A stretch of 64,000 nt of DNA from Escherichia phage phi92. The position numbers and the translations under genes were made by a program. Numbering within the stretch: position 1 is the stretch's first letter; the number at the start of each line of letters is the position of its first letter. This document shows, in pieces, positions 28,380 through 62,803 of the stretch. The DNA lies in sequence record NC_023693.1, one strand, 5' to 3'. The notes under the pieces were generated by a model that saw only the letters and a list, made by a program, of their open reading frames with translations, was not told the origin of the DNA and did no database searches.

Positions 28380-29357
28380 TTAAGCAACAGTCTGGTCTTC
28401 TTTTTCAGGGAAGATTAAACTTGCAACAACACCCAACCCAAGAGTACCTAACACAATATACATACTGATCGTCGGATCAATGTGTGCTGGCAGGAAACTG
28501 GCTTTTGCGTGCAGAGTTTCTGCAAACGGGTGATACATCAGTTTTACACCCACAAACACCAGGACTACGATAACTGCTTTCTCCAGATGAACCAAATATT
28601 TCAGTGCAACACTAAGGACAAAGAACAGAGCACGTAGACCTAAGATTGCACAGAGCATCGAAGAGAACACTAGCAGAGGTTCTTGTGTCACTGCAATCAC
28701 TGCTGGAACAGAGTCTACTGCAAAGATTACGTCAACCATTTCCATTACAAACACACAAACCAGAGCCGGAGTTGCTACACGAACACCATTTTTGATTGTG
28801 AAGAACTTCTCACCATCCATCTGATCAGATACAGGGAACAGCTTACGAACAATGCGAGTAGCCCAGTGTTTAGAGTAATCAACTTCTGCATCATTATCTC
28901 CAGCGAATACCATTTTAGCCGCACAGAAAAGGATGACAGCACCGAAGAAGATATTAACATACCAGCCCAAACTCAACAAGTAAGTACCTACTGCTACAAA
29001 CACACCTCGGAAGACAATCGCACCTGCAATACCCCAAAGTAGAATCTTGTGCTGCAAGTGTGTGCTTTTAATACCAAAACTTGCGAATACTGCTACAAAT
29101 ACTACTAAGTTATCTACAGAAAGAGATTTCTCCAACACATACCCACTCAAGAACAAGCTCGCAAAATCAGCACCGTGTTGGAAGTATACAAAACCATAGT
29201 AGGCTAATGATACCCCAATCCAGAAAATTGACCAGCCAATTGCAGATTTAAATGAAATTTCTTTGTTTTCTCTGTGTCCAAAGAAATCAATACAAATCGA
29301 CAAGACTAAAATACCCACTAAAACAACCACATCAATAATTGGGAAACCCAGTTGCAT
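28380..29357 (-). CDS. TerC-family integral membrane protein
   Basis: 325 aa with multiple hydrophobic helices and conserved acidic residues in helices, as in TerC. Confidence 0.6.
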   Translation of the reverse strand: MQLGFPIIDVVVLVGILVLSICIDFFGHRENKEISFKSAIGWSIFWIGVSLAYYGFVYFQHGADFASLFLSGYVLEKSLSVDNLVVFVAVFASFGIKSTHLQHKILLWGIAGAIVFRGVFVAVGTYLLSLGWYVNIFFGAVILFCAAKMVFAGDNDAEVDYSKHWATRIVRKLFPVSDQMDGEKFFTIKNGVRVATPALVCVFVMEMVDVIFAVDSVPAVIAVTQEPLLVFSSMLCAILGLRALFFVLSVALKYLVHLEKAVIVVLVFVGVKLMYHPFAETLHAKASFLPAHIDPTISMYIVLGTLGLGVVASLIFPEKEDQTVA

Positions 29358-29375
29358 TCTTTTCTCCTCTTTAAT

Positions 29376-29396
29376 GCGGAGGACAATCCTCCGCTC
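29376..29396 (-). promoter_or_regulatory. hairpin in leader of TerC-like gene
   Basis: GCGGAGG-ACAAT-CCTCCGC located between the - strand RBS and the upstream gene. Confidence 0.3.
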
Positions 29397-29434
29397 TATG
29401 TCGTATACTATAAACTGTTTTTAAAGAAAGTCAA

Positions 29435-51938: not shown

Positions 51939-52154
51939 TATTTTGAAAATTTTTATTTTTATAAAAAGGGGTGTGGGTTTCATGTACGGAAATTCACCCT
52001 CTGCACAGTATACCCAGAGTAAGTATTATTCTATACTCTGTTAATAAAGTATTTAATTTGTTTGTTGGACTATGGTATCTGGTTTTTAAAAGACACATTA
52101 TCTCTTAACTACTATTTATAACAGAACAGTAAAATCATTTTTATAAAAAGGACA

Positions 52155-52355: not shown

Positions 52356-52378
52356 TTTCGTGTTTTTATGGGTGTGCG

Positions 52379-52500
52379 GATGATAATCATTCTCATTTGT
52401 AAATGAGAATCATTATCATTTAATTATGTAAGTGATAATCATTCTCACTAAGAGAATGAGAATCATTAGCAAATGAGAATTTTTCTCATTTAGAGAATAA
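52379..52500. promoter_or_regulatory. cluster of palindromic operator-like sites (Fur-box-like)
   Basis: GATAATCATTCTCATTTGTAAATGAGAATCATTATC near-perfect 36-bp palindrome, plus GATAATCATTCTCA...GAATGAGAATCATTAGC and AAATGAGAATTTTTCTCATTT. Confidence 0.45.
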
Positions 52501-52753
52501 CGCGCAGGGGTGGTGTTTGTCTCGCGCTCCCGTGTCCCCTCGCCATACAATAAGAATAGCATAACCAACAACAAAAGCAAGCGATTATTTTTATCTTTAC
52601 ATTTCTTTACAAATTTATTTTAGACGAGCTACCGGCGATCAACCTTCCAACCAGTAGTGCCCTGGTATGTTAGCCCCGCCTTTACGCCGTGGGGGTGGCG
52701 CTTCCTCTTCTGTATGTAAAACAGTATAAGCCCGATCCCTGGGCTTGTCAAGA

Positions 52754-53020
52754 TTATTTTTTGTTTTCTTGCCAGGATAGGACACCTAACCAAAAATACA
52801 TGTCGCCCCGCGCCCCTGGTGGGATCTTGCTTTCCCCGCCGCCACTGCAAGCCCATAGATAACCATTTGCGAACGTATCAAAATGATCTATCTCTTCCAC
52901 CTTATGATCGCCCAGGTTGAGAACGGTTTCAACCTTTAAGCCCGTTGCGCTTGCTACCTGGTGCACCGTGCCGCCTTGCCAGCCCAATGAGTGCATGAGG
53001 TGTGAAGTAGTATTTGTCAT
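52754..53020 (-). CDS. hypothetical ORF in GC-rich island (uncertain)
   Basis: 88 aa ORF with weak RBS; local GC content visibly higher than the surrounding phage DNA. Confidence 0.25.
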   Translation of the reverse strand: MTNTTSHLMHSLGWQGGTVHQVASATGLKVETVLNLGDHKVEEIDHFDTFANGYLWACSGGGESKIPPGARGDMYFWLGVLSWQENKK

Positions 53021-53131
53021 GGTATCGCCCTTTCTTTGATGTGCGCCCTGGTTGGCGCGGTAGAAAGATAATAGCCCTTTCCTTTATAGATAGCAAGCAA
53101 AAAAGAAATGAAAAAAGATTAAAAAAAGGGG

Positions 53132-53160
53132 TTGACGTTCCTCACCTGGTAGCGTATTAT
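53132..53160 (+). promoter_or_regulatory. sigma70-like promoter
   Basis: TTGACG, 17-bp spacer, TATTAT. Confidence 0.4.
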
Positions 53161-53287
53161 TCATCTTGTCGAGGGGGGCGAGGCACAACGACAATAAACA
53201 AAAGGAGGGCGCAATGCAGGACGGGCAAAGGTGAGGATCTCCACAATCCACCGTCACAATAACATTACTTATAAAAGGTTGATAACG

Positions 53288-53392
53288 ATGATCAAGAAAG
53301 AAAACAGCTTGACGGTTGGAACGATTAACGCTATTTTGTTAGCCGTTCCAGTGTGGATCACTGTAGCAATTGTTGTTTCAATCATTCTATAA
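53288..53392 (+). CDS. small membrane peptide (34 aa)
   Basis: MIKKENSLTVGTINAILLAVPVWITVAIVVSIIL; below track size cut-off. Confidence 0.35.
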   Translation: MIKKENSLTVGTINAILLAVPVWITVAIVVSIIL

Positions 53393-53402
53393 GGCGTACA
53401 CT

Positions 53403-53684
53403 ATGAGCAAGGTAATTAATCATAAAGAGTTAAGCCCTACCCTTTCAATGAGTGAATGTACCGATGGTTTTTGGCTGTATGATGATACGCGCGGCATGAA
53501 TTTAGCCATGCGTGAAAAAACAGAAGAGGCGGCGTATATTAAAGCCCTGGAATACTACCAACGACGACTACAGGAAGTAGAAAGTAATTATAAAAGCCTG
53601 AAATCAAAGGTTGATCATTTTGTCGGTCAAGTAGTGGAAGAGGAAGAAGATCACTATTGCGAACGGTGCGGATCATATAGCTGA
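53403..53684 (+). CDS. hypothetical early protein
   Basis: Start set to ATG (MSKVINHK); track ORF starts upstream in the same frame. Confidence 0.4.
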   Translation: MSKVINHKELSPTLSMSECTDGFWLYDDTRGMNLAMREKTEEAAYIKALEYYQRRLQEVESNYKSLKSKVDHFVGQVVEEEEDHYCERCGSYS

Positions 53685-53693
53685 AAAAGATTG

Positions 53694-53750
53694 TTGACAA
53701 CGTTTGAAAAAGTAGTAATATGTATCACATAGGGCGGCAATAGTGCCGCT
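53694..53750 (+). promoter_or_regulatory. early promoter + conserved leader hairpin (cassette 1)
   Basis: TTGACA, 16 bp, TAATAT, then GGCGGCA-ATAG-TGCCGCT hairpin. Confidence 0.55.
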
Positions 53751-53773
53751 CATAACAGAAGAGAGAAATAATC

Positions 53774-54046
53774 ATGGCATCATATAGCGCATCAATGATC
53801 GTAATGGGTATCACTGGTAAACCTATGTGCGGTGGCGGATCTTTCGCTAATATTAATATTGATGGGCGTTTATCCCTGGATGCAGCGATCACCGTGGCAC
53901 GGGAAACATTTAAAAAAGAATGTAATTTCAATAAGCAAGATTATTTAGGTTTCGCTATTGAAAAAACCGCGCGCTTTGTGGATTATAAAAGCCCGAAAAT
54001 GATCGACACTACACTAAAAGCGCAAGATGTAGCGTTTTTGCTTTAA
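53774..54046 (+). CDS. hypothetical early protein
   Basis: 90 aa ORF downstream of cassette 1. Confidence 0.45.
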   Translation: MASYSASMIVMGITGKPMCGGGSFANINIDGRLSLDAAITVARETFKKECNFNKQDYLGFAIEKTARFVDYKSPKMIDTTLKAQDVAFLL

Positions 54047-54049
54047 GGT

Positions 54050-54109
54050 TTGACACTGAAAAATAATTGGGTAATATATACCACATAAGGCGGGAAATGG
54101 TTTCCCGCC
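54050..54109 (+). promoter_or_regulatory. early promoter + leader hairpin (cassette 2)
   Basis: TTGACA, 16 bp, TAATAT, then GGCGGGAAA-TGG-TTTCCCGCC. Confidence 0.55.
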
Positions 54110-54134
54110 AGGCCATCAAAGAAAGGGTAACACA

Positions 54135-54497
54135 ATGAGCAAGCAAATCAATACTATCATGTTAAACCTGGTATCTTTCCGCGACGACGTGAAAAATCTT
54201 TCGCGTGAAGCAGTGGATGCACGGATCGAAAGCTATCGCACGCAGATCGCAACATTGCCGCTAAAATGTGATCAACATGCCGCTAATATGATGCTTAATG
54301 CTATGCTTAAAAAGATGATTCAGTGTGATCTTACCCTGGCTTATGAATATGCTGGCGATCTCTTTGTAACGTATAATAAGCCCGTTCCAGGTATGAGCAC
54401 CACGGAAGAATTGCATGCCTTAAATCTGCGACAAGATGCATGGGATAACATGCGCCGTGTTATGGTATGGGTAGAAAGCGGTAAAATTTACGAATAA
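54135..54497 (+). CDS. hypothetical early protein
   Basis: 120 aa ORF, RBS aagaaaggg. Confidence 0.45.
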   Translation: MSKQINTIMLNLVSFRDDVKNLSREAVDARIESYRTQIATLPLKCDQHAANMMLNAMLKKMIQCDLTLAYEYAGDLFVTYNKPVPGMSTTEELHALNLRQDAWDNMRRVMVWVESGKIYE

Positions 54498-54503
54498 AAA
54501 CGG

Positions 54504-54557
54504 TTGACATTGCACTAAAACCTGATAAGCTATCTTAAAGCGGGAATTGTTCCCGCT
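54504..54557 (+). promoter_or_regulatory. early promoter + leader hairpin (cassette 3)
   Basis: TTGACA, 16 bp, TAAGCT, then AGCGGGAA-TTG-TTCCCGCT. Confidence 0.5.
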
Positions 54558-54575
54558 TACATAGGATAAAACTTT

Positions 54576-54722
54576 ATGAAACAATATGTAATGAGTATTC
54601 ACACCAAAAACGGCGCTACTGTTACGACTCCGGCACGGTTTGCACTTGTAAACCGTTGCAAGAGACTAAAACGAGAGTTAAAAAATAACCGTGCAACGGG
54701 CTTTAAACGCTGGGGAGGATAA
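54576..54722 (+). CDS. small basic protein (48 aa)
   Basis: MKQYVMSIHTKNGATVTTPARFALVNRCKRLKRELKNNRATGFKRWGG; its end provides RBS ggagga for the next gene. Confidence 0.4.
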   Translation: MKQYVMSIHTKNGATVTTPARFALVNRCKRLKRELKNNRATGFKRWGG

Positions 54723-54724
54723 TC

Positions 54725-54985
54725 TTGTTTTTTCTAAAAGTTTTTGATAATGTGATCGCTTTTGAACATGCTACAACGTTCAACCTGGCGAGATACGCTA
54801 TCAGGTTTAAAGATAATGTTTATCCCCGTGCTGGCGGCGGTTACACTATTTTTAATCATCGTAATGCGCAACTAACAGATATAACGAATCCAGATCCTGG
54901 AGTGTATCGCATAGGCTGGCTACCGTCAAAAGACGCTGCAAGCATGTTTAAGGTGTGTAAACTACTAACAGAAGAGGCGAACTAG
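54725..54985 (+). CDS. hypothetical early protein (TTG start)
   Basis: 86 aa; TTG start 5 nt after RBS GGAGGA; translationally coupled to the preceding small ORF. Confidence 0.4.
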   Translation: MFFLKVFDNVIAFEHATTFNLARYAIRFKDNVYPRAGGGYTIFNHRNAQLTDITNPDPGVYRIGWLPSKDAASMFKVCKLLTEEAN

Positions 54986-54986
54986 C

Positions 54987-55541
54987 ATGGGGCGTGAATA
55001 TGTGATCCAGTCCTGGGTAAAGCATGATGCTAATGATCCGCGCATAATACCAGACGACATGATCGATCACATGGTAGGGTATAGCGGGGAGCAGATAGGA
55101 AATCGAGCGGCAAAGAGCAACGGCAACACCAGGACGCGATCCGTTCGCCCTGGATGGCTGGCGAATGGTAACGCTGACATTGCAAGCGCCGCAGATCCAA
55201 GCGATGATGCTAAAAATAATCCCTTATACAGCATTGATCCGGCTTTTAAGGTGTTAGAAGAGTATCCCGCTAAATTAGCCGCACTAGATAAGGCATACGA
55301 AGAAAAGCGCATGGCATGGACTGTATACAACACCGCTAAAATGGTGCTAGATGCAAAATTGATTAAAGCCCAGGAGAAGATCAATAAACTTGTTACCATA
55401 GCGCAAGAGGAAGACCAGGACGACCAGGAGGAAGAGGAAGAAATCATGCCTAACCTGGAAGAGGAAGAGATCCAGCCATACATGCCGACGGAAGAGGAAA
55501 AAAGACAAGCCTTAAAAAATTACGAAAATTGTATTGTGTAA
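54987..55541 (+). CDS. hypothetical protein with strongly acidic C-terminus
   Basis: 184 aa ending QEEDQDDQEEEEEIMPNLEEEEIQPYMPTEEE. Confidence 0.45.
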   Translation: MGREYVIQSWVKHDANDPRIIPDDMIDHMVGYSGEQIGNRAAKSNGNTRTRSVRPGWLANGNADIASAADPSDDAKNNPLYSIDPAFKVLEEYPAKLAALDKAYEEKRMAWTVYNTAKMVLDAKLIKAQEKINKLVTIAQEEDQDDQEEEEEIMPNLEEEEIQPYMPTEEEKRQALKNYENCIV

Positions 55542-55544
55542 GGC

Positions 55545-55600
55545 TTGACATATGCAAACAAGCCCCGTAATATATACCACATAGAGCGGGGCAACGCCTC
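55545..55600 (+). promoter_or_regulatory. early promoter + weaker leader hairpin (cassette 4)
   Basis: TTGACA, 17 bp, TAATAT, then GGGGC-AAC-GCCTC. Confidence 0.45.
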
Positions 55601-55621
55601 AAAGGTGAAATAAAAAATCAC

Positions 55622-55649
55622 TTGACACCTGAAATCAGTAAGCTATAAT
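55622..55649 (+). promoter_or_regulatory. consensus sigma70 promoter (no hairpin)
   Basis: TTGACA, 16-bp spacer, TATAAT (perfect consensus), tandem to cassette 4. Confidence 0.55.
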
Positions 55650-55686
55650 GCTTATATAAATTAAAGCGTTACTAAGGAATAAAATC

Positions 55687-56052
55687 ATGGCTAAAAATAT
55701 CAATGTTTCTGCTTATGCTACCCTGGCTAACACTGCTAAAATTGAACTATCCAGCATTGAAGCGGTACATATTAGCGCCCGTCGCTGGTTTCAAAAGTCT
55801 TATGGTAATACTTATTTCTCTTTGATGGTTGACGTTGAGATCGGCGGTAAACTGATTGAAGTCGTTAACGTTCCGTTTCAATATGGTTATGGTGATCATT
55901 TTGATACCGTCGCCCTGGAAGAGTTTAGCAAGGTTATCAACCTGGAAGGTAAAGACTTTTCAAATTATGCTTACCTTTCCCGTTTTTGCCGTGACAATGG
56001 GATCGCTGTATACAGTCATGCAAGCGATGTTAAACGTAAAAAAGATTTATAA
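55687..56052 (+). CDS. hypothetical early protein
   Basis: 121 aa ORF, RBS aaggaa. Confidence 0.45.
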   Translation: MAKNINVSAYATLANTAKIELSSIEAVHISARRWFQKSYGNTYFSLMVDVEIGGKLIEVVNVPFQYGYGDHFDTVALEEFSKVINLEGKDFSNYAYLSRFCRDNGIAVYSHASDVKRKKDL

Positions 56053-56058
56053 AAAGCA

Positions 56059-56116
56059 TTGACAGCACGAATAAAAAGCATATAATACTTATATCGAGAG
56101 CGGGAATAGTTCCCGC
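56059..56116 (+). promoter_or_regulatory. early promoter + leader hairpin (cassette 5)
   Basis: TTGACA, 16 bp, TATAAT, then GCGGGAA-TAG-TTCCCGC. Confidence 0.55.
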
Positions 56117-56140
56117 CTCACTGAAAAAGAGATTAACATC

Positions 56141-56380
56141 ATGGCTAAATCTAAAATGTACAACGGTCACAAAAATAAAACTCATTGGAATGTAAGCCTT
56201 TGGATCAACAACGATGAAGGTTTTTATAATCTTGCGCGTGAATTTATCGCAGCTAACACCAATAAGAATGACGCAGCGCGGGATATGATGTTATTTCTTG
56301 AAAGTATGGATCAAGATAAAACGCCAGACGGTTACAAGTTCAGTAAAACTGCAATCCGTGCCGCTATGGTAGGAATGTAA
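56141..56380 (+). CDS. hypothetical early protein
   Basis: 79 aa ORF. Confidence 0.45.
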   Translation: MAKSKMYNGHKNKTHWNVSLWINNDEGFYNLAREFIAANTNKNDAARDMMLFLESMDQDKTPDGYKFSKTAIRAAMVGM

Positions 56381-56389
56381 TAAAATAGC

Positions 56390-56449
56390 TTGACACTGTT
56401 TTTTATTCTGGTATAGTTTATCACATAGGGCGGGAAATGGTTTCCCGCC
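56390..56449 (+). promoter_or_regulatory. early promoter + leader hairpin (cassette 6)
   Basis: TTGACA, 16 bp, TATAGT, then GGCGGGAAA-TGG-TTTCCCGCC. Confidence 0.55.
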
Positions 56450-56471
56450 AAATCAAAGAAAGGTTATAATT

Positions 56472-56699
56472 ATGGCTATCGTTATTGTTCGCGTATCCGG
56501 TACGGTTGGAAGCTCCCAGGTAGTAGCAGTTATCACAGAGAAGAAAGGGGATGATCTTCACTCTTCCTTGAATAGCTGGGCGGTCGCTAATTTTGGTCAG
56601 TGGTCGAGCGTCGAGTATATCGAATCCTACCAGGTGCCGACGATTAGCCTAACCGATCTAAATGTTGATCGCTTGTTGTGCCTGGATGCATTAAACTAA
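56472..56699 (+). CDS. hypothetical early protein
   Basis: 75 aa ORF. Confidence 0.45.
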   Translation: MAIVIVRVSGTVGSSQVVAVITEKKGDDLHSSLNSWAVANFGQWSSVEYIESYQVPTISLTDLNVDRLLCLDALN

Positions 56700-56707
56700 A
56701 AATAATC

Positions 56708-56764
56708 TTGACAAGATAACTAAAATTAGTAAAATGTAATTCATAGGGCGGCAATAGTGCCGCT
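56708..56764 (+). promoter_or_regulatory. early promoter + leader hairpin (cassette 7)
   Basis: TTGACA, 16 bp, TAAAAT, then GGCGGCA-ATAG-TGCCGCT. Confidence 0.55.
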
Positions 56765-56785
56765 CATAGTGAGAGAGATTATCAA

Positions 56786-57001
56786 ATGGCTAATATCCGC
56801 ACACTGTTAAAAAATGCAAAGCAGGTTTTATTTTCTGATCACGATCATTTCAATAAAGACATTACAGGCGTGAAAAATCTTAAAGATGTAAAGGATGTAA
56901 TAGGTATTCGCGGATCTTTACGTAAAGGTGACATATACGGTAACAAGGTGCAATATAAACTGTCAAAAGATTATGATTTTACTTTGACATTTATTTCATA
57001 A
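56786..57001 (+). CDS. hypothetical early protein
   Basis: 71 aa ORF. Confidence 0.45.
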   Translation: MANIRTLLKNAKQVLFSDHDHFNKDITGVKNLKDVKDVIGIRGSLRKGDIYGNKVQYKLSKDYDFTLTFIS

Positions 57002-57007
57002 AACCGC

Positions 57008-57068
57008 TTGCAATACTGCAAAAATAAAGTAAACTGTATTCATCAAGGCGGTGGAATAGCCCACCGCC
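57008..57068 (+). promoter_or_regulatory. early promoter + leader hairpin (cassette 8)
   Basis: TTGCAA, 16 bp, TAAACT, then GGCGGTGG-AATAGC-CCACCGCC. Confidence 0.5.
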
Positions 57069-57092
57069 TAACAAAGAGAAGAGGAAAACATC

Positions 57093-57263
57093 ATGATCAC
57101 TTTCGCTACCCGTGAAGCCGCTCGCAACGTTGCACGTAAAGTTAATGCCGCCAACCTGGGCGCTACGCTTAAAGCCCCGGTAAAAGATGAATCAGGTAAA
57201 TGGATCTTTCCTGGTCTGCGTCACGCTGATAAGCTGGGAACATTAACGTTAAAAAACAAATAA
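57093..57263 (+). CDS. small hypothetical protein (56 aa)
   Basis: MITFATREAARNVARKVNAANLGATLKAPVKDESGKWIFPGLRHADKLGTLTLKNK; RBS gaggaa; below track size cut-off. Confidence 0.4.
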   Translation: MITFATREAARNVARKVNAANLGATLKAPVKDESGKWIFPGLRHADKLGTLTLKNK

Positions 57264-57270
57264 TATCCGT

Positions 57271-57329
57271 TTGACAGTAGCATCATTTAGAAGTAAAGTA
57301 ACAACAACGGCGGGGAATGGTTTCCCGCC
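57271..57329 (+). promoter_or_regulatory. early promoter + leader hairpin (cassette 9)
   Basis: TTGACA, 17 bp, TAAAGT, then GGCGGGGAA-TGG-TTTCCCGCC (one G-T position). Confidence 0.55.
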
Positions 57330-57349
57330 AACAATAAAGAGATAAGATT

Positions 57350-57709
57350 ATGAAATCAGTAAAAGCAATTAAAACTTACATTGTGTCGGCTATTTCTTTT
57401 GAAGGTACTACAACAGAAAAAGAAAAGATCACCGAACTGATGCGCCGTTTTAAGTCTGAATACTGGTATCAATCTAATCGTGATCGTTATAATAACAACA
57501 TGGTACAAGCTGTTAAAAGCTGGTTACAAGGTTTACCGTCAGAAATAAATATTGCTTTTAATTATAACGAGATCGATCACTTATTAATCGAATGGAAGTG
57601 TATAAAAGAAACAAGCAAAGAAACAACCGTTACCCGTGAGCGGGAAAATTATTGGTTATATATTGCAAGCATGATCGTAACTTTGGCAAAATATCATAAA
57701 GTAGCGTAA
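57350..57709 (+). CDS. hypothetical early protein
   Basis: 119 aa ORF. Confidence 0.45.
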   Translation: MKSVKAIKTYIVSAISFEGTTTEKEKITELMRRFKSEYWYQSNRDRYNNNMVQAVKSWLQGLPSEINIAFNYNEIDHLLIEWKCIKETSKETTVTRERENYWLYIASMIVTLAKYHKVA

Positions 57710-57723
57710 TCGAGAGGAAAAAC

Positions 57724-57861
57724 ATGAACGCATCACAGCAGATCGAAAAATTCAACCGCAGCAAGGCGCGTAAAGATTGGAACGAAGAGATCACCAAAAA
57801 AGGCGACAAGCGGAACAAAACAAAAAGAGATCGCAGCACAAAAAGATACTGGAACGAATAA
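57724..57861 (+). CDS. small basic protein (45 aa)
   Basis: RBS gagagga; MNASQQIEKFNRSKARKDWNEEITKKGDKRNKTKRDRSTKRYWNE. Confidence 0.35.
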   Translation: MNASQQIEKFNRSKARKDWNEEITKKGDKRNKTKRDRSTKRYWNE

Positions 57862-57867
57862 CAAAAA

Positions 57868-57890
57868 GGGCGCAATAAGCGCCCTTTTAG
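57868..57890 (+). terminator. rho-independent terminator
   Basis: GGGCGC-AATAA-GCGCCC followed by TTTT. Confidence 0.55.
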
Positions 57891-57978
57891 CTTATATAGG
57901 GGCTTGTTACCCATAGGCAATGGTAACGCCAGGGCAAGCCTATAAATCAACGTTAGACGGCTTTACAGGAGCTTTAAA

Positions 57979-58161
57979 ATGAGATTAGAAGAAATAAGCA
58001 AGGCACTAGCCCAGGGGCAAAGGTTATGCGCCAGATATCGTGATCAATATGGCTTCATAACTAGCGGCGTGATCCTGGGGATTGAAGGCAATAAGATTTT
58101 TATTGACACGTTGAAAAACGTTGTATATAGTGACAATATAATCTCAATAAAACATATATGA
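57979..58161 (+). CDS. hypothetical protein
   Basis: 60 aa ORF, RBS aggag. Confidence 0.4.
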   Translation: MRLEEISKALAQGQRLCARYRDQYGFITSGVILGIEGNKIFIDTLKNVVYSDNIISIKHI

Positions 58162-58169
58162 GGCAAGAA

Positions 58170-58571
58170 ATGAAAAAATTATTGATCGCTGGTTTAATCT
58201 CTTTTGGTATGGTTGGAACATCTAGCGCGGCGATATCCTCCACAGTAGCAGAATTAAGCGCCGTTGATGCAATGGAAAACGTCATGCTTATTAATAATGC
58301 GATCCCCGATGAAATCATGGAGGATTCACACATGATCGCTTATGGTGCTGTTACACAACTAACGGCAAAAATAGATAAATCTATTGTTAATGGCTTAAAT
58401 GAAGATGTACCATGTGAAATTATTACCAGTGTGCTGACTACTCAAAATTTTACACCGTGGTTAAAAAGTATTCAAAAAGTACACAGTACAGCCGCAGATC
58501 GTAGCAATGAAAAACTAGTGTCAGCACTTGCAACGTATACCCTAGCAAAATGCACTGAAATAAAAGATTGA
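58170..58571 (+). CDS. secreted/periplasmic protein
   Basis: Start set to MKKLLIAGLISFGMVGTSSAA (signal peptide) with RBS gagg. Confidence 0.45.
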   Translation: MKKLLIAGLISFGMVGTSSAAISSTVAELSAVDAMENVMLINNAIPDEIMEDSHMIAYGAVTQLTAKIDKSIVNGLNEDVPCEIITSVLTTQNFTPWLKSIQKVHSTAADRSNEKLVSALATYTLAKCTEIKD

Positions 58572-58596
58572 CAGCATAGAAAGCACGTTATAAGAT
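58568..58596 (+). promoter_or_regulatory. sigma70-like promoter (no hairpin)
   Basis: TTGACA, 17 bp, TAAGAT. Confidence 0.4.
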
Positions 58597-58618
58597 ACAC
58601 ACAACAAAGGAGAACTAC

Positions 58619-58921
58619 ATGAACGGCATAGCTAAAACGTTTTTTCTTTTTTCTGGTGTAAATGATCCATCAATAAAAGTCGATAGTGTAAAAGAAAACA
58701 ATACTATCACCGCTAAATTGTTTCAAGATGAAACAAATAACGTGCTAATCATTAATCTTAAAGAAATAACGAAAGGTTATTATACTATTGCTTACCATGC
58801 AATCTATCATGCTGGTACTAGTGAGGAAGTGCAAACAAGCAACAACGAAAGCGCGGCGCTACCTGGTGATCTGGTGCTGGGCGTTATCAGTTTAATTGTC
58901 AATGATTTTTTTAAGGAGTAA
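58619..58921 (+). CDS. hypothetical protein
   Basis: 100 aa ORF, RBS aaggag. Confidence 0.45.
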   Translation: MNGIAKTFFLFSGVNDPSIKVDSVKENNTITAKLFQDETNNVLIINLKEITKGYYTIAYHAIYHAGTSEEVQTSNNESAALPGDLVLGVISLIVNDFFKE

Positions 58922-58925
58922 AACC

Positions 58926-59021
58926 ATGCCCTATTTACATTTATTTTTCGGGATCTTATTGTCAGGATCTTTTTTCTTCTGTATACTTGTTTCTATTGTA
59001 AACCACGTTTTAAGACATTAA
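58926..59021 (+). CDS. small membrane peptide (31 aa)
   Basis: MPYLHLFFGILLSGSFFFCILVSIVNHVLRH; RBS aaggag. Confidence 0.35.
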   Translation: MPYLHLFFGILLSGSFFFCILVSIVNHVLRH

Positions 59022-59030
59022 GGAAACAGC

Positions 59031-59150
59031 ATGAAAATTATTCCCGTACAATATAGCGTAATAAATCCAGCATACGAGGAAGGAAGGAAAACAAGCATGG
59101 TTTTATGTTATATTGCTACTATAACCATGTTGTTATATATTGTGTTTTAA
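59031..59150 (+). CDS. small membrane peptide (39 aa)
   Basis: MKIIPVQYSVINPAYEEGRKTSMVLCYIATITMLLYIVF; RBS taaggaa. Confidence 0.35.
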   Translation: MKIIPVQYSVINPAYEEGRKTSMVLCYIATITMLLYIVF

Positions 59151-59179
59151 TAGGTTTTATAGTTGTACGCTTTAAAGGC

Positions 59180-59207
59180 TTGACAATTTTTTGTTATGCT
59201 TTAAAAT
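59180..59207 (+). promoter_or_regulatory. sigma70-like promoter (no hairpin)
   Basis: TTGACA, 16 bp, TAAAAT. Confidence 0.45.
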
Positions 59208-59250
59208 ATATCTTGAAAACGGCAAAGGCCGCAAACAAAAGGGTAAAATT

Positions 59251-59574
59251 ATGAAATCTGTGATCGGTGTTTATTTGGATAACTCTGATTTTTTCTATCA
59301 TCGCGCGCGTTTACTTGATGCTATTGAAATGATAGAATCAGGCTTTAAAGAGTATCGCCTTGCACATGATGACCTGGAAGCATTACAGGGCAATAGTGTT
59401 TTTACATTGCAAGCGAAAGCACTATGCAAAAGCCGGATCGACATTGCGAGCAAAAAGATAGAACGCGGCATGTCCTGGTTGCGCACCGCAGAAATCAACA
59501 TGGGGCAATGGTACGGCGAAAACTTAGAAAATAAACATGCTTTTGTCAATGTAGAAAATATTGAAGATTATTGA
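59251..59574 (+). CDS. hypothetical early protein
   Basis: Start set to ATG (MKSVIGVY) with RBS aaaaggg. Confidence 0.45.
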   Translation: MKSVIGVYLDNSDFFYHRARLLDAIEMIESGFKEYRLAHDDLEALQGNSVFTLQAKALCKSRIDIASKKIERGMSWLRTAEINMGQWYGENLENKHAFVNVENIEDY

Positions 59575-59636
59575 TTGACAGCACACTGAACTGGTAGTAT
59601 ATTGTATCTCATAGAGCGGGGAAATGGTTTCCCCGC
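59575..59636 (+). promoter_or_regulatory. early promoter + leader hairpin (cassette 10)
   Basis: TTGACA, 17 bp, TATATT, then GCGGGGAAA-TGG-TTTCCCCGC. Confidence 0.55.
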
Positions 59637-59656
59637 CTTAAAAGAAGAGATAAGCT

Positions 59657-59941
59657 ATGAAGATCACAAAAGCACTTTCCAACTATGCAGCACGTCGCGG
59701 CTTATGTTTAACCGTTGAAAACCTGGGGAAAGAAGATTTTTTGTGCTTTTGGGAGCTTGAGAATGATAATGAGTGGATCTTCTCTTATTCTATCTGCGAA
59801 GATCAAAACGGTTGTTTATTAACCTGGCGCGGTAATATCTATCTACCGGAAGAAATCAAAGAAGAATTGCCAGGCACGATCATGACTGAGAAACAGCTTA
59901 AGGAAGTGATTAATTTTGTAGGGCAAAACATTAAAAAATAA
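59657..59941 (+). CDS. hypothetical early protein
   Basis: 94 aa ORF. Confidence 0.45.
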   Translation: MKITKALSNYAARRGLCLTVENLGKEDFLCFWELENDNEWIFSYSICEDQNGCLLTWRGNIYLPEEIKEELPGTIMTEKQLKEVINFVGQNIKK

Positions 59942-59942
59942 T

Positions 59943-60000
59943 TTGACACTAGGCAAACAACGTAGTAAAGTTTATCACATAGGGCGGCAATAGTGCCGCT
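59943..60000 (+). promoter_or_regulatory. early promoter + leader hairpin (cassette 11)
   Basis: TTGACA, 17 bp, TAAAGT, then GGCGGCA-ATAG-TGCCGCT. Confidence 0.55.
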
Positions 60001-60022
60001 CACAACTAAAAGAGAAATCAGC

Positions 60023-60217
60023 ATGGCGCTTAAAAAACTAACAAGCAATACTCGTTGGGATGAAATCGACGGGGAAGTATACATTTTCGCCCGTAAACCA
60101 GGTGATCAAAAATGGTCAAAGGCTTTTACTTGCCACCCTGCAACAATAGACCTGATAAAAAGGGAAGGTCTACGTGAAGCAGTAGCGAGAAGTTTACTGA
60201 TCCCTTATAAAAAATAG
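60023..60217 (+). CDS. hypothetical early protein
   Basis: Start set to ATG (MALKKLTSN). Confidence 0.45.
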   Translation: MALKKLTSNTRWDEIDGEVYIFARKPGDQKWSKAFTCHPATIDLIKREGLREAVARSLLIPYKK

Positions 60218-60218
60218 T

Positions 60219-60279
60219 TTGACAATATGCTGTTATCTGGTAAAGTGTACGACATAGGGCGGGGCAATAAGGCAACGCC
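60219..60279 (+). promoter_or_regulatory. early promoter + degenerate leader hairpin (cassette 12)
   Basis: TTGACA, 16 bp, TAAAGT, then GGCGGGGCAATAAGGCAACGCC with only a short GGCG/CGCC stem. Confidence 0.4.
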
Positions 60280-60301
60280 ACACATCAGAAAGGGAAAGAT
60301 T

Positions 60302-60538
60302 ATGACTATAGCAACAGTATTAACCGCCGTTAAAACCGCAGAATCATCCGGCTTGCATGTTGAGATTATAGATCAACCAGGTGGCGATCTCCTTGTCCAG
60401 GTTTACCCGCCGAAAGTAGGGGATGATTATTATTGGTGCTATTCTGATACGTTCGAACAAGTAGACACGAAAGCGATCACGGCTTTTATTTTAAAAGCTA
60501 TTGAAGAAAATAACTTTCATTATAACATCAATCAATAA
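60302..60538 (+). CDS. hypothetical early protein
   Basis: Start set to ATG (MTIATVLTAV) with RBS aagggaaag. Confidence 0.45.
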   Translation: MTIATVLTAVKTAESSGLHVEIIDQPGGDLLVQVYPPKVGDDYYWCYSDTFEQVDTKAITAFILKAIEENNFHYNINQ

Positions 60539-60558
60539 ACCATAAGCGGGGTAGCATC

Positions 60559-60663
60559 ATGTTAGAGAAAATTTTCACGGTTGTAATAGTGGGCCTGGCG
60601 TTATCGGTTGGATTGGTTGCAACTATGGCTAACATGATCCTATCTTCCCACGGTATCGGCTAA
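60559..60663 (+). CDS. small membrane peptide (34 aa)
   Basis: MLEKIFTVVIVGLALSVGLVATMANMILSSHGIG. Confidence 0.3.
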   Translation: MLEKIFTVVIVGLALSVGLVATMANMILSSHGIG

Positions 60664-60677
60664 AAGAGAAACACAAC

Positions 60678-61064
60678 ATGAAAACAGAAATCATTATTGA
60701 AATCATCAACGGTTATAAAGAAGCCTTTATTTTTGCCGAACCAGCGACGGATCACAATGGGGAATATATTGAGAATCTAGACGATTATGATTTTTCTCCT
60801 AGCGCCCTGAAACGTATTACCAGCGATGTGACCGCCTTTTGTAGTGCCAATGTTGCCGCTATCTCTGAGGCAATGAGCGACGGCGCTACAGCAAACCAGA
60901 TCGGGAATGATTTACATTTCACCCGTAACGGTCACGGCGTAGGCTTTTGGGATCGCCCTGAAATATACACTACTAACACCGCCAACCGCCTAACAAATGC
61001 AGCTAAATTAATGCCATCGGTGCATGCTTACATTGGTGAAGATAATTTGATTTATATTGAATAA
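60678..61064 (+). CDS. hypothetical early protein
   Basis: 128 aa ORF. Confidence 0.45.
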   Translation: MKTEIIIEIINGYKEAFIFAEPATDHNGEYIENLDDYDFSPSALKRITSDVTAFCSANVAAISEAMSDGATANQIGNDLHFTRNGHGVGFWDRPEIYTTNTANRLTNAAKLMPSVHAYIGEDNLIYIE

Positions 61065-61070
61065 AAAGTA

Positions 61071-61129
61071 TTGACACCGATCCCCAATATGGTACTATTT
61101 ACCACGTAGGCGGGAAGTGGTTTCCCGCT
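61071..61129 (+). promoter_or_regulatory. early promoter + leader hairpin (cassette 13)
   Basis: TTGACA, 16 bp, TACTAT, then GGCGGGAAG-TGG-TTTCCCGCT (two G-T positions). Confidence 0.55.
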
Positions 61130-61186
61130 AAATGAGAGATTATCATTATGTTCGATATCAGCCTGGACAAATAAGAGATTCCCATA

Positions 61187-61732
61187 ATGAACGCCTTGAT
61201 CGACAAAAAAACCTTTCTTAATAACGCCTACGTTAATGAACTACTTTCATCCGGTCGCTGGGTTAGCCACGGATCTGACCTTCAAACATGGCTAGATGAG
61301 TGCGACGAGGTTCCCGCCGCCTTTTCAGGTAAAAATTTGCAGCAGGTTATAAATGATACTGAATTTTTAAACTTCTTCCGTGAGTGGTTAAGCTGCCGCT
61401 TTGATTTTGCTATGAAATATCTGATCCAAGACATTAACCAACACACGGTTATTCGGCGGGCGGTATACCTAACCCCGGCACAAAAGGCCGAAATATTGCC
61501 CGGTTCTTTTGTTAATGTTGGTAAATATTGGACAGTATCCAGGACTGTGGAGCCATACGGGGCCACCTACACAAAGGATCGGGAGATAGTAACAATCACC
61601 ACAGAGTTAGACCTTAATTCAATCGACCTTATTCAGACGATGATCTCTCGCATGGACTATATTAATGGAGATTATGAAATGGAGATACAAACAAAGGAAA
61701 ACTTACCTGTAAAAATTCTCGCTATAGAATAG
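61187..61732 (+). CDS. hypothetical early protein
   Basis: 181 aa ORF. Confidence 0.45.
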   Translation: MNALIDKKTFLNNAYVNELLSSGRWVSHGSDLQTWLDECDEVPAAFSGKNLQQVINDTEFLNFFREWLSCRFDFAMKYLIQDINQHTVIRRAVYLTPAQKAEILPGSFVNVGKYWTVSRTVEPYGATYTKDREIVTITTELDLNSIDLIQTMISRMDYINGDYEMEIQTKENLPVKILAIE

Positions 61733-61755
61733 CCCGCTGCCCGGCGGGTTTTCTT
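61732..61755 (+). terminator. rho-independent terminator
   Basis: GCCCGC...GCGGG stem followed by TTTTCTT. Confidence 0.5.
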
Positions 61756-61788
61756 ACAGTTTTTTACAATTCTACCTATTGACACCGG

Positions 61789-61839
61789 ATCGCCCTTATA
61801 CTAAGATGTATCACGTAAGGCGGGAAGTGGTTTCCCGCC
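61789..61839 (+). promoter_or_regulatory. early promoter + leader hairpin (cassette 14)
   Basis: TTGACA, 17 bp, TAAGAT, then GGCGGGAAG-TGG-TTTCCCGCC. Confidence 0.55.
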
Positions 61840-61857
61840 AGATATAGGAGTCATATC

Positions 61858-62088
61858 ATGATCGAACAAATTAAACGCGCTGAGGCTATTAACGGTAATG
61901 TGATCTATTTTGTCAACAATAACGAAAAAGGCGTACCATATGCGGCGGTAATAGTACAGCCTGACGGCGATTATTGGTTTACTGTATACGGATCTTATTC
62001 TTTTGGGCGTCCAGTACATGATAAAATTTTGGAAGTAGCTAATCCCACTGGGAAGAATATCACAGTAGAAAAATTCTATGAAAAATAA
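61858..62088 (+). CDS. hypothetical early protein
   Basis: 76 aa ORF, RBS aggag. Confidence 0.45.
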   Translation: MIEQIKRAEAINGNVIYFVNNNEKGVPYAAVIVQPDGDYWFTVYGSYSFGRPVHDKILEVANPTGKNITVEKFYEK

Positions 62089-62163
62089 CTTGCTTTATAG
62101 CCTCTGTTAATTTATAGTTATCGTGTAGGGCAAACAATTTTAAACGGTAAACGAGGAATCTCC

Positions 62164-62547
62164 ATGAGCAATATCATCAACCTGGCGGCGACTGTAAACG
62201 GTAAAGATTTTAACGGCGCTGTAGATCGTGATCCTATGTGGTGCTTATCAGTGTTTAAAGGCGATCTGGTTGAAGTTAGAACAACCGAAGGGTATAGCGA
62301 TGATTATAAATGTGAGATTCATTTGCACAACTGGTACACGGGTAAAACTTATGCGCTGAATCATGCGTTTATCGGGAAAATTGAATATCGCGAGATGATC
62401 GACGAGGAAACCGGGCAAGATTTTAGCGACTATGTTTATATTCGTTCAGAAACATTAGCCGAACGTTTGATCGAGAAAATGAAAGCAAAAAATAAAATTA
62501 ATTTAACTCATTGGATTGATATAACAAACGATCCAGCTTATCAGTAA
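62164..62547 (+). CDS. hypothetical early protein
   Basis: 127 aa ORF, RBS gagga. Confidence 0.45.
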   Translation: MSNIINLAATVNGKDFNGAVDRDPMWCLSVFKGDLVEVRTTEGYSDDYKCEIHLHNWYTGKTYALNHAFIGKIEYREMIDEETGQDFSDYVYIRSETLAERLIEKMKAKNKINLTHWIDITNDPAYQ

Positions 62548-62563
62548 ATAACATTTCATACCA

Positions 62564-62589
62564 GGGCGCTTATTGCGCCCTTTCTTTTT
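62564..62589 (+). terminator. rho-independent terminator closing the early array
   Basis: GGGCGC-TTATT-GCGCCC followed by TTTCTTTTT. Confidence 0.6.
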
Positions 62590-62803
62590 ACCTAAATAAA
62601 GATGATAGCTTTTACCTATCAAAAACGTTCACCGAAAAAAGTGAATAGATCGCGGTATCGAGCTAATCAAGGAGCAGATGAACAACCATACCATGAAGAT
62701 CATAAGGCGCTTACAACGTGTTTTAGACCGCTTATTTTTAATTTCTCAATGTAACTATCGGGCAAAAACAGCCTTTTTCTTGTCTTTCCTCTTAAATGAT
62801 AAT

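What the first reader, a model, noticed from the sequence alone, without database searches (positions are those of the whole stretch)
53694..61839. About 14 copies of one promoter + leader-hairpin cassette drive the small early genes
Upstream of nearly every small + strand gene between 53.7 and 61.9 kb sits the same module: TTGACA, a 16-17 bp spacer, a TAnnnT -10, a conserved CA(C/T)(A/G)TAGG stretch, then a GC-rich hairpin (typically GGCGGGAAA-TGG-TTTCCCGCC) about 10 nt past the -10, at the predicted transcript 5' end. Stem sequences differ between copies yet stay complementary (GGCGGCA/TGCCGC, GGCGGTGG/CCACCGCC, GCGGGGAAA/TTTCCCCGC). Copies at 57309-57329, 61109-61129 and 61819-61839 contain G-T positions that pair only as G.U in RNA. 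That favours an RNA-level element (5' stabiliser, processing or translational-control site) over a DNA operator. One shared leader on so many unrelated ORFs implies a single shared control point for the whole early gene set.
Basis: partly seen in the sequence, partly recalled or inferred. Interest (0 to 1): 0.8.

Follow-up and report, generated by a model that had tools for sequence, protein, structure and literature searches.

The report
Repeated early-gene promoter and leader-hairpin cassette
A phi92/rV5-type coliphage drives about half of its small early genes of unknown function from copies of one roughly 80-base cassette (strong host-type promoter, GC hairpin at the start of the transcript, ribosome site). 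The cassette resembles the promoter stem-loop cassettes (PeSLs) of T4-like phages, but the hairpin sits inside the transcript.

Summary
Between 53694 and 61839 the + strand carries 13 intact promoter-plus-hairpin cassettes, 2 with a decayed hairpin and 1 with a remnant. About 0.005 would be expected by chance. One more copy lies on the minus strand at 29434.

The window is a phi92-like myovirus (Justusliebigvirus, about 96% identical to known phages). The same cassette occurs in Phapecoctavirus, rV5-like phages and the jumbo phage PBECO4.

The hairpin starts a fixed 10-12 nt after the -10 box, about 3-6 nt after the predicted start site. It lacks a T-run and varies from 16 to 24 nt. It is therefore neither a canonical terminator nor a likely rigid dimer operator. 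Stems differ (45 alleles) yet stay 98% complementary.

At one orthologous promoter, close relatives carry four different hairpin tops inside an otherwise 97% identical cassette. Gene insertions, deletions and replacements are flanked by cassette copies. This matches the PeSL modular shuffling described in T4-like phages.

Most likely reading: a plug-in early expression cassette whose 5' hairpin stabilises or insulates the mRNA, and whose repeats serve as recombination sites. The RNA-level role is inferred, not shown. The G.U argument is weak, and "one shared control point" is unsupported.

The parts
53694..53773 (+). Cassette 1. -35 at 53694-53699, -10 at 53716-53721, CACATAGG box, hairpin 53732-53751 (GGGCGGCA-ATAG-TGCCGCTC). 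The gene starts at 53774.
   Evidence: RNA fold -14.4 kcal/mol, z -2.8.
54050..54134 (+). Cassette 2. Hairpin 54089-54109 (GGCGGGAAA-TGG-TTTCCCGCC). The gene starts at 54135.
54504..54575 (+). Cassette 3, a variant. Hairpin 54538-54558 starts only 6 nt after the -10 box, and the ACATAGG box follows the hairpin instead of preceding it. The gene starts at 54576.
55545..55686 (+). Cassette with a decayed hairpin (about 55584-55600), followed by a second consensus promoter without a hairpin (55622-55649). It looks like a deletion scar: relatives carry an extra 60-aa gene here.
   Evidence: (z -0.6)
56059..56140 (+). Cassette 5. Perfect TTGACA-N16-TATAAT promoter, hairpin 56100-56116 (GCGGGAA-TAG-TTCCCGC). 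This single cassette aligns to both of the two cassettes that flank an extra gene in ESCO32 and ZYD.
56390..56471 (+). Cassette 6. Extended -10 box (TGn), hairpin 56429-56449.
56708..56785 (+). Cassette 7. Hairpin 56746-56765 (GCGGCA-ATAG-TGCCGC type).
57008..57092 (+). Cassette 8. -35 box is TTGCAA, hairpin 57046-57069 (AGGCGGTGG-AATAGC-CCACCGCCT).
   Evidence: Fold z -3.7.
57271..57349 (+). Cassette 9. Hairpin 57309-57329 with one internal G.U pair. It has no CAYRTAGG box (AACAACAAC instead).
59180..59250 (+). Promoter TTGACA-N16-TAAAAT with only a 4-bp CGGC/GCCG remnant of a hairpin. The gene starts at 59251.
59575..59656 (+). Cassette 11. Hairpin 59616-59636 (GCGGGGAAA-TGG-TTTCCCCGC).
59943..60022 (+). 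Cassette 12. Hairpin 59982-60001. Relatives have about 490 extra bases inserted at this cassette.
60219..60301 (+). Cassette with an interrupted hairpin (about 60258-60279, GGCG..GGCAATAAGGCAA..CGCC). The gene starts at 60302.
61071..61147 (+). Cassette 14. Hairpin 61109-61129. It is followed by an 8-codon remnant ORF (61148-61174) and a gene (61187-61732) that is replaced by other genes in relatives.
61779..61857 (+). Cassette 15. Hairpin 61819-61839. Homology with relatives resumes 6-16 nt upstream of its -35 box.
62089..62163 (+). Promoter-like TTGCTT-N17-TATAGT with a CGTGTAGG box but no hairpin. The gene starts at 62164.
   Evidence: read directly
29355..29434 (-). Extra cassette outside the reported interval, on the minus strand. 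Hairpin 29394-29376 (GCGGAGGA-TTG-TCCTCCGC). It drives a TerC-family membrane protein gene (28380-29357).
57864..57888 (.). Canonical two-way terminator (A-tract, GC stem, T-tract). Listed for contrast with the leader hairpins.
62563..62581 (+). Canonical terminator that closes the early gene array (AGGGCGC-TTATT-GCGCCCT, then TTCTTTTT).

Best explanation
The repeats are copies of a modular early-gene expression cassette of about 80-100 bp. Each copy has an AT-rich upstream stretch, a near-consensus host sigma-70 promoter, a start site at the purine of CAYRTAGG, a 6-10 bp GC hairpin from about +4 to +25 of the transcript, an A-rich unpaired spacer, a purine-rich ribosome site and the ATG.

Host RNA polymerase fires each cassette right after infection. 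The first roughly 25 nt of each short mRNA fold into a stable hairpin (-14 to -19 kcal/mol) that leaves only 3-6 unpaired nucleotides at the 5' end. This most likely hinders 5'-end-dependent decay (RppH and RNase E). It also gives every unrelated gene the same unstructured ribosome-site context.

At the DNA level the repeated cassettes are substrates for homologous recombination. They insert, delete and replace early genes of unknown function together with their expression signals, and they homogenise one another by gene conversion, as proposed for PeSLs of T4-like phages.

Shown here: the cassette, its fixed geometry, preserved pairing, absence of terminator tails, spread across phage lineages, swapping of hairpin tops, and cassette copies flanking indels.

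Inferred: the start site, folding in vivo, and the stabilising or insulating effect.
For: Counts and chance expectation.

Promoter quality: 19 sites on the + strand match at least 10 of 12 consensus positions.

Fixed geometry across 135 cassettes from 12 loci:
- -10 box to GCGG core peaks at 12 nt (79 of 135).
- Hairpin to ATG is 16-26 nt.

Start-site signature: C at position 7 (63 of 105) and a purine at position 8 (88 of 105) after the -10 box, the usual pyrimidine/purine start pattern.

Folding: all 12 intact leaders fold as a 5'-proximal hairpin with the ribosome site and AUG left open, z -1.3 to -3.7.

Pairing: 45 alleles with 14 different loop-proximal 6-mers are 97.8% Watson-Crick paired, against 62.8% with shuffled arms and a maximum of 73.7% in 2000 shuffles.

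Strand: the sense strand folds better than the antisense strand in 57 of 72 variants. Covariance-model scores are about twice as high on the sense strand.

Coupling to promoters: almost every sense-strand model hit has a promoter at the right distance, and hairpins essentially never occur without one.

Not terminators: no T-run follows the hairpins (T 15%, A 53% in the next 12 nt, longest T-run 3 or less), and none is flagged as terminator-like. Real terminators in the same region have a different shape.

Recombination:
- Homology blocks with five close relatives end and begin inside cassettes.
- The same window cassette aligns to both sides of insertions.
- One orthologous cassette carries four alternative hairpin tops in six phages while the rest is about 97% identical.

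Gene content: the downstream genes have no known function.

Spread: the cassette is shared by Justusliebigvirus, Phapecoctavirus, rV5-like phages and PBECO4.
Against: - No transcript 5' ends are mapped. If the start site lies at the predicted A, 3-6 nt stay unpaired. From my own knowledge of the ompA work, that is near the limit reported for protection by a 5' hairpin.
- Four good promoters in the same array work without a hairpin, and two copies tolerate a decayed hairpin, so the hairpin is not essential.
- Non-canonical pairs include C.A and G.A as well as G.U, so there is no clean RNA-only signature.
- Breakpoints are enriched in cassettes against a uniform null (19 of 30 clusters against 14.5% coverage, p about 1e-9) but not against an intergenic-only null (14 of 20 against 72%, p 0.69).
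- Matching changes in both arms of a short inverted repeat can arise by gene conversion or template switching, without selection on RNA.
Confidence: 0.55

Rival explanations
1. The hairpin is a terminator or attenuator for transcription arriving from the upstream gene. This is what Arbiol et al. proposed for the stem-loops of PeSLs. It would insulate each gene from read-through.
For: PeSL stem-loops, also G-run/loop/C-run, reduced downstream lacZ expression as strongly as rrnB T1 (PMC2839356). One leader hairpin in phage Schickermooser is annotated as an ARNold terminator in the public record (L008 4522-4540; cassette).
Against: The hairpins have no T-run on either strand. The hairpin lies downstream of its own start site, so a terminator there would abort the cassette's own transcript. 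In PeSLs the stem-loop lies upstream of the start (checked in RB49). The phage uses canonical A-tract/T-tract terminators where the array ends (57864, 62563).
Confidence: 0.12
2. The conserved leader (CAYRTAGG, base of stem, TCAYAAC) is an RNA tag bound by a phage or host factor. That factor switches off, processes or protects all early mRNAs together.
For: The flanks and the GCGG/CCGC base are much better conserved than the upper stem and loop. Loops in the phi92-like group are mostly (A)T(A/G)G. The position relative to the start site is fixed.
Against: Loops and upper stems are freely exchanged, and they differ in rV5, LTH01 and PBECO4. About half of the early genes lack the element. No candidate binding protein was identified. 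Flank conservation is also expected from recent duplication and gene conversion.
Confidence: 0.13
3. The palindrome matters only at the DNA level. It acts as a hairpin or cruciform that promotes or targets recombination between cassettes, and it is kept perfect by template switching. It has no role in the RNA.
For: [quoted passage not shown] Changes between orthologous cassettes are concentrated exactly in the upper stem and loop. C.A and G.A mismatches are tolerated.
Against: The fixed position relative to the -10 box and start site is not needed for a recombination signal; PeSL stem-loops sit in five different positions. The element is kept across distant phage lineages with the G-rich arm always first. 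The sense strand folds better.
Confidence: 0.13
4. The inverted repeat is a double-stranded DNA operator, centred near +15, for a dimeric repressor that shuts off the early promoters.
For: The element is a palindrome overlapping the early transcribed region, a classical operator position. The outer half-sites GGCGG/CCGCC are conserved.
Against: The distance between the conserved half-sites varies by 8 bp (total length 16-24 nt). The inner stem sequence is not conserved although pairing is. Some alleles lack the GCGG base altogether (GGGGAGAA, GGGGGAA, GGGGCG).
Confidence: 0.05

Closest known systems
PeSL (promoter-early stem-loop) cassettes of T4-like phages RB49/phi1, PST/T4 and nt-1/KVP40 (Arbiol et al. 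2010, PMC2839356; Comeau et al. 2014, PMC4122927)
   Same: - A repeated intergenic motif with an AT-rich upstream part, a near-consensus sigma-70 early promoter, a G-run/loop/C-run stem-loop, a Shine-Dalgarno site and an ATG.
- Concentrated among small genes of unknown function.
- Copies flank indels and replacements between close relatives.
   Different: - Here the stem-loop has one fixed position, downstream of the predicted start site, so it is part of the cassette's own mRNA.
- PeSL stem-loops sit upstream of -35, between -35 and -10, over a box, or just before the start (RB49 checked).
- The host phages belong to other lineages (Stephanstirmvirinae, Vequintavirinae, Asteriusvirus).
- Terminator activity and mini-circles are untested here.
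5'-terminal stabiliser hairpins of E. coli and phage mRNAs (ompA 5' UTR; the stem-loop at the 5' end of T7 phi10 transcripts). Cited from my own knowledge, not from a paper read here.
   Same: A stable hairpin within a few nucleotides of the 5' end, followed by an open ribosome site. The proposed effect is a block to RppH and to 5'-end-dependent RNase E attack.
   Different: No half-life data exist for this element. The predicted 5' tail of 3-6 nt is at the upper limit for protection. The element is multiplied on many genes as part of a mobile cassette.
Lambda nut (boxA plus boxB hairpin) and HK022 put RNAs: cis-acting RNA elements just downstream of early promoters. From my own knowledge.
   Same: A short conserved linear box plus a hairpin in the first tens of nucleotides of early transcripts.
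   Different: boxB is recognised through a conserved loop, whereas loops here vary. put is a roughly 65-nt double stem-loop. Those elements occur once per operon, not once per gene. With a promoter per gene, antitermination is not needed here.
Intrinsic (Rho-independent) terminators
   Same: A GC-rich stem of 6-10 bp with a 3-6 nt loop.
   Different: There is no U-tract. The sequence after the stem is A-rich (53% A, 15% T). The element lies inside the leader of the gene it precedes.

Membership tests
PeSL cassettes (T4-like phages) | Repeated intergenic motif containing a sigma-70-like early promoter with an AT-rich upstream region | tested here: met
   (81 of 105 variants have TTGACA; 79% A+T in the 15 nt upstream of -35)
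PeSL cassettes (T4-like phages) | Adjacent stable stem-loop, typically a G-run, a loop and a C-run | tested here: met
   (5' arm has 202 G against 55 C)
PeSL cassettes (T4-like phages) | Stem-loop placed in or upstream of the promoter, before the start site, so that it acts on transcripts coming from upstream | tested here: not met
   The hairpin starts 9-12 nt after the -10 box in 117 of 135 copies, downstream of the predicted start. RB49 PeSLs checked directly have it between -35 and -10 or over the -10 box.
PeSL cassettes (T4-like phages) | Shine-Dalgarno site and start codon at the 3' end of the motif | tested here: met
   (ATG lies 16-26 nt after the hairpin; purine-rich AAAGAGA-type site)
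PeSL cassettes (T4-like phages) | Enrichment in variable regions rich in genes of unknown function | tested here: met
   All 10 genes tested fall in PHROG families of unknown function. Gene content varies between relatives that are 94-97% identical.
PeSL cassettes (T4-like phages) | Copies flank indels and replacements between close relatives; recombination occurs between copies | tested here: met
   Caveat: there is no enrichment over an intergenic-only null.
PeSL cassettes (T4-like phages) | Stem-loop terminates transcription in a reporter; mini-circles form by recombination between cassettes | not testable with these tools
   Needs reporter assays and inverse PCR. By sequence the hairpins lack a U-tract.
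5'-terminal mRNA stabiliser hairpin | Hairpin within about 0-4 unpaired nt of the real 5' end | tested here: inconclusive
   The predicted start (purine at position 7-8 after the -10 box) leaves 3-6 nt unpaired, or 0 in copy 54504. No mapped 5' ends are available.
5'-terminal mRNA stabiliser hairpin | Lengthens mRNA half-life in a stem-dependent way | not testable with these tools
   Needs rifampicin chase experiments with stem mutants.
Intrinsic terminator | GC hairpin immediately followed by a U-tract | tested here: not met
Palindromic operator for a dimeric DNA-binding protein | Conserved half-site sequence at fixed spacing | tested here: not met
   Total length is 16-24 nt, and inner stem sequences differ while pairing is kept.
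nut/boxB-type antitermination site | Conserved loop recognised by an N-like protein; one site per operon | tested here: not met
   21 different loops occur among 45 alleles, with one site per gene. An N-like protein was not searched for.
Any curated RNA family (Rfam 15) | Match to a covariance model | tested here: not met
   No match with E up to 1 in 52000-64000.

The most novel reading that the evidence does not exclude
The 5' hairpin with its conserved flanks is a 'self' tag on early phage mRNAs. A phage-encoded or host RNA-binding factor or nuclease reads it. Hairpin-tagged early messages are then protected together while host mRNA is degraded, or silenced together at the early-to-middle switch. 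The tag travels with genes between unrelated phage lineages (phi92-like, rV5-like, PBECO4-like jumbo phages).
Probability: 0.13. Interest if true: 0.75.

Novelty: new variant of a known kind. Interest (0 to 1): 0.45.

Why it matters
- It extends the idea of mobile promoter-plus-stem-loop cassettes from T4-like phages to three other lineages of virulent coliphages. It does so with an architecture that puts the hairpin into the mRNA, which raises a testable question about 5'-end protection of early phage messages.
- It explains the gene-by-gene mosaic of the early regions in these therapeutically used phages.
- It warns annotators that these hairpins are not terminators. One is annotated as a terminator in a public record.
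- It offers a compact, naturally tested expression cassette (strong promoter, 5' hairpin, open ribosome site) for engineering.

Tried and rejected
- Rfam search of 52-64 kb: no match.
- Pattern scan of viral contigs for ATAGGGCGG-N(3-16)-CCGCTCA: 86 stretches with one match each, scattered over contigs of many unrelated sizes. Only one contig has the length of a known relative (149,506 nt, the PD06 genome size). I took the rest for chance matches without inspecting them, and the scan gave no wider sample of hairpin tops.
- Covariance model R1: it found the copies, but the alignment (A4) mixes sense and antisense readings of the palindromes and shifts register by one. I therefore did not run the count of structure pairs on it and counted pairs with my own script instead.
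- Alignment A2 contained one sequence that I had shortened by hand. It was discarded and replaced by A3, which has real sequences only.
- Breakpoint enrichment disappears against an intergenic-only null.
- G.U against A.C as a strand test: too few independent events.
- Link to an Srd-like protein (rV5 gp11, named in PMC3606486) as a reason for mRNA protection: no homologue in this window, so the idea was dropped.
- Literature: no description of this leader hairpin was found for rV5, phi92 or PBECO4-type phages. The PVP-SE1 and phi92 genome papers are not held, so prior description cannot be excluded. One search was too broad to be useful.

Full report
WHAT THE WINDOW IS

The interval 53.6-61.9 kb is 94-97% identical to phi92-like coliphages (vB_EcoM_ZYD, ESCO32, PD06, KKP_3264 and others; genus Justusliebigvirus, subfamily Stephanstirmvirinae), with 6-9 aligned pieces per genome. 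It is a block of small + strand genes. All ten that I tested fall in PHROG families of unknown function. AT-rich non-coding DNA bounds the block on both sides.

THE OBSERVATION

The cassette is real.
- Thirteen copies are intact. Their -35 boxes start at 53694, 54050, 54504, 56059, 56390, 56708, 57008, 57271, 59575, 59943, 61071 and 61779.
- Two copies have a decayed hairpin (55545, 60219).
- One has a 4-bp remnant (59180).
- One has the CGTGTAGG box only (62089).
- A further intact copy lies on the minus strand at 29434 and drives a TerC-family gene.

A strict scan finds 12 promoter-plus-hairpin units on the + strand of the interval, none on its minus strand, one in the other 53 kb, and 0.005 on average in Markov simulations. 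The independent consensus scan lists 19 sites on the + strand that match at least 10 of 12 promoter positions.

'Nearly every gene' is too strong. About half of the roughly 26 genes have an intact cassette. Promoters at 55622, 58103 and 58568 have no hairpin.

ANATOMY

I pooled the window with 11 loci from relatives, which gave 135 cassettes and 105 distinct promoter-leader variants.
- TTGACA is present in 81 of 105 variants and TTGCAA in 13. The spacer is 16 nt in 61, 17 nt in 34 and 18 nt in 10.
- The 15 nt upstream of -35 are 79% A+T.
- Position 7 after the -10 box is C in 63 of 105 and position 8 is a purine in 88 of 105. This is the usual start-site pattern.
- The GCGG core begins 12 nt after the -10 box in 79 of 135 copies (range 8-15).
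- Stems are 6-10 bp and loops 3-6 nt. Total hairpin length is 16-24 nt.
- The ATG follows 16-26 nt after the hairpin.
- The 12 nt after the hairpin are 53% A and 15% T, with no T-run longer than 3.

When folded as RNA from the predicted start, all 12 intact leaders form a 5'-proximal hairpin. The minimum free energy of each folded stretch is -14 to -19 kcal/mol and z is -1.3 to -3.7. Between 3 and 6 nt stay unpaired at the 5' end, and the ribosome site and AUG stay open.

WHAT IT IS NOT

Not a canonical terminator. None of the leader hairpins passes the terminator-like scan. Every other GC hairpin in the window has the A-tract/stem/T-tract shape of a two-way terminator, including 57864-57888 and 62563-62581 inside the array. 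A terminator placed after its own start site would also abort its own message.

Probably not a rigid dimer operator. The spacing of the conserved outer half-sites varies by 8 bp, the inner stem sequence is free, and some alleles lack the GCGG base altogether.

Not a curated RNA family.

IS THE PAIRING SELECTED, AND IS IT RNA?

Forty-five hairpin alleles, with 14 different loop-proximal 6-mers, are 97.8% Watson-Crick paired. With shuffled arms the figure is 62.8% (maximum 73.7% in 2000 shuffles).

The 5' arm is always the G-rich one (202 G against 55 C). The sense strand folds better than the antisense strand in 57 of 72 variants (mean 1.0 kcal/mol). Covariance-model scores are about twice as high on the sense strand. 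Hairpins practically never occur without a promoter at the right distance. These points favour a function tied to the cassette's own transcript.

The RNA-specific signature is nevertheless weak.
- Non-canonical pairs are G.T in 4 alleles, G.A in 3 and C.A in 2.
- The strand asymmetry rests largely on one shared flank (GG...TC).
- The variants are related by descent and conversion.
- Matching changes in both arms can arise at the DNA level by conversion or template switching.

RECOMBINATION

I compared the window with five close relatives.
- Homology blocks stop at the end of a cassette (56114, 60017, 61128, 53738).
- They restart about 10 nt upstream of a -35 box (53684, 56045, 59933, 61763-61773).
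- The same window cassette aligns to both sides of an inserted gene, for example window 56045-56114 against ESCO32 17636-17705 and 17965-18034.
- The gene 61187-61732 is replaced by other genes between cassettes 61071 and 61779.
- In PD06 the homology block that ends at 53738 rejoins at 54072, so the gene 53774-54046 has no aligned counterpart there.

Nineteen of 30 breakpoint clusters fall in cassette intervals that cover 14.5% of the sequence (p about 1e-9). Cassettes also fill 72% of the intergenic space, so there is no excess over an intergenic-only null. The flanking-copy pattern is therefore the stronger evidence.

The clearest single result comes from the orthologous cassette upstream of the gene that begins ATGATCCCGACTATG. 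It is about 97% identical in six phages. The exception is the upper stem and loop, where four alternative, internally complementary tops sit between invariant GGGCGG and CCGCTCA. All four tops exist in other cassettes of the same genomes. Short-tract gene conversion between paralogous cassettes is the simplest explanation.

SPREAD

The same architecture occurs in:
- Phapecoctavirus (Schickermooser, 21 copies in 17 kb);
- WPEC1, LTH01 and A7_1;
- rV5, with fewer copies;
- the jumbo phage PBECO4, genus Asteriusvirus, with at least 10 copies in 10.8 kb, for example TTGCAA-N16-TATAAT-GTTTTACATCAGG-TGGGGAA-TAG-TTCCCCA.

Small early genes move between lineages. rV5 ORF205 is 90% identical in protein sequence to RB49p260.

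COMPARISON WITH WHAT IS KNOWN

The closest described system is the PeSL of T4-like phages (PMC2839356, PMC4122927). A PeSL is a repeated cassette made of an AT-rich region, a sigma-70-type early promoter, a G-run/loop/C-run stem-loop and a Shine-Dalgarno site. PeSLs are enriched among genes of unknown function in variable regions, flank indels, and are able to form mini-circles. All of these sequence-level features are met here.

The difference is the position of the stem-loop. PeSL stem-loops occupy five positions, all at or before the start site, and are read as terminators for upstream transcription. I confirmed this layout in RB49. Here the hairpin has one fixed position inside the leader and no terminator tail.

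I found no description of the element for rV5, phi92 or PBECO4-type phages. The rV5 paper lists 33 promoters and 20 terminators but mentions no leader hairpin. Two relevant genome papers were not available. One copy is annotated as an ARNold terminator in the Schickermooser record.

VERDICT

The best reading is a PeSL-like plug-in early expression cassette. Its hairpin is part of the mRNA 5' end and most likely stabilises or insulates it. Its repeats drive modular gene shuffling and concerted evolution.

My confidence is about 0.9 for the cassette and promoter, 0.75 for the recombination role, and 0.4-0.5 for the RNA-level stabiliser role. The rivals are a terminator, a shared RNA control tag, a DNA-only recombination signal and an operator; each rates 0.05-0.13.

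The element is a new variant of a known kind and of moderate interest.

Noticed in passing
window 52399-52470, 62850-62868, 63731-63749 (also 52380, 62796, 63930): Close matches to the E. coli Fur-box consensus GATAATGATAATCATTATC. There are 5 matches at 4 sites with 3 or fewer mismatches, against 0.03 expected. All lie in the two AT-rich non-coding regions that flank the early gene array. This could be iron-responsive control or Fur titration by the phage. Unexplained.
   Followed up: partly
window 52155-52359: Three tandem copies of a 63-75 nt AT-rich repeat (AAATTATTTAAAGTTTTT...GAAAATGAAAAGTTCAA), just upstream of the divergent early promoter region.
   Followed up: no
window 62600-64000: About 1.4 kb of AT-rich DNA with no convincing genes and many short repeated words. 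It corresponds to the 'non-coding' box drawn in the rV5 genome map (PMC3606486). It could be an origin or a regulatory region.
   Followed up: no
window 28380-29357 (minus strand): A TerC-family integral membrane protein gene (Pfam PF03741, E 1e-38) in a lytic phage, driven by its own copy of the leader-hairpin cassette.
   Followed up: partly
window 5331-6094: Collagen-like 9-nt periodic repeats (AAAGGTGAT..., Gly-X-Y type) inside a large gene, probably a fibre protein.
   Followed up: no
window 61148-61174: An 8-codon ORF directly behind cassette 61071. It looks like the stump of the gene that follows this cassette in relatives, left when the 61187-61732 gene replaced it.
   Followed up: partly
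window 55545-55686: Two consensus promoters in tandem, 77 nt apart. The first has a decayed hairpin. Relatives carry a 60-aa gene between the two, so this is a deletion scar.
   Followed up: partly
L007 30844-31035 (rV5 ORF205) and L013 6401-6592 (RB49p260): A 63-aa early protein is 90% identical between rV5-like phages and the T4-like phage RB49. This points to recent exchange of small early genes between unrelated myovirus lineages.
   Followed up: partly
public records MG065645, MG065689, MG065639, MG065656 ('Campylobacter phage' A145, A110a, A150, C3): These records are about 95% identical to this coliphage over 8 kb and have coliphage genome sizes. The host labels look doubtful. Enterococcus phage heks (MT119359) carries 673 bp at 91% identity at its very start, which suggests a chimeric assembly or contamination.
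   Followed up: no
L008 4522-4540 (Schickermooser record MK373788): A feature annotated as a 'putative transcriptional terminator (ARNold)' is the leader hairpin of a promoter cassette (TTGACA-N16-TAATAT-GTTACATAA-AGCGGGAA-TAG-TTCCCGCT).
   Followed up: yes
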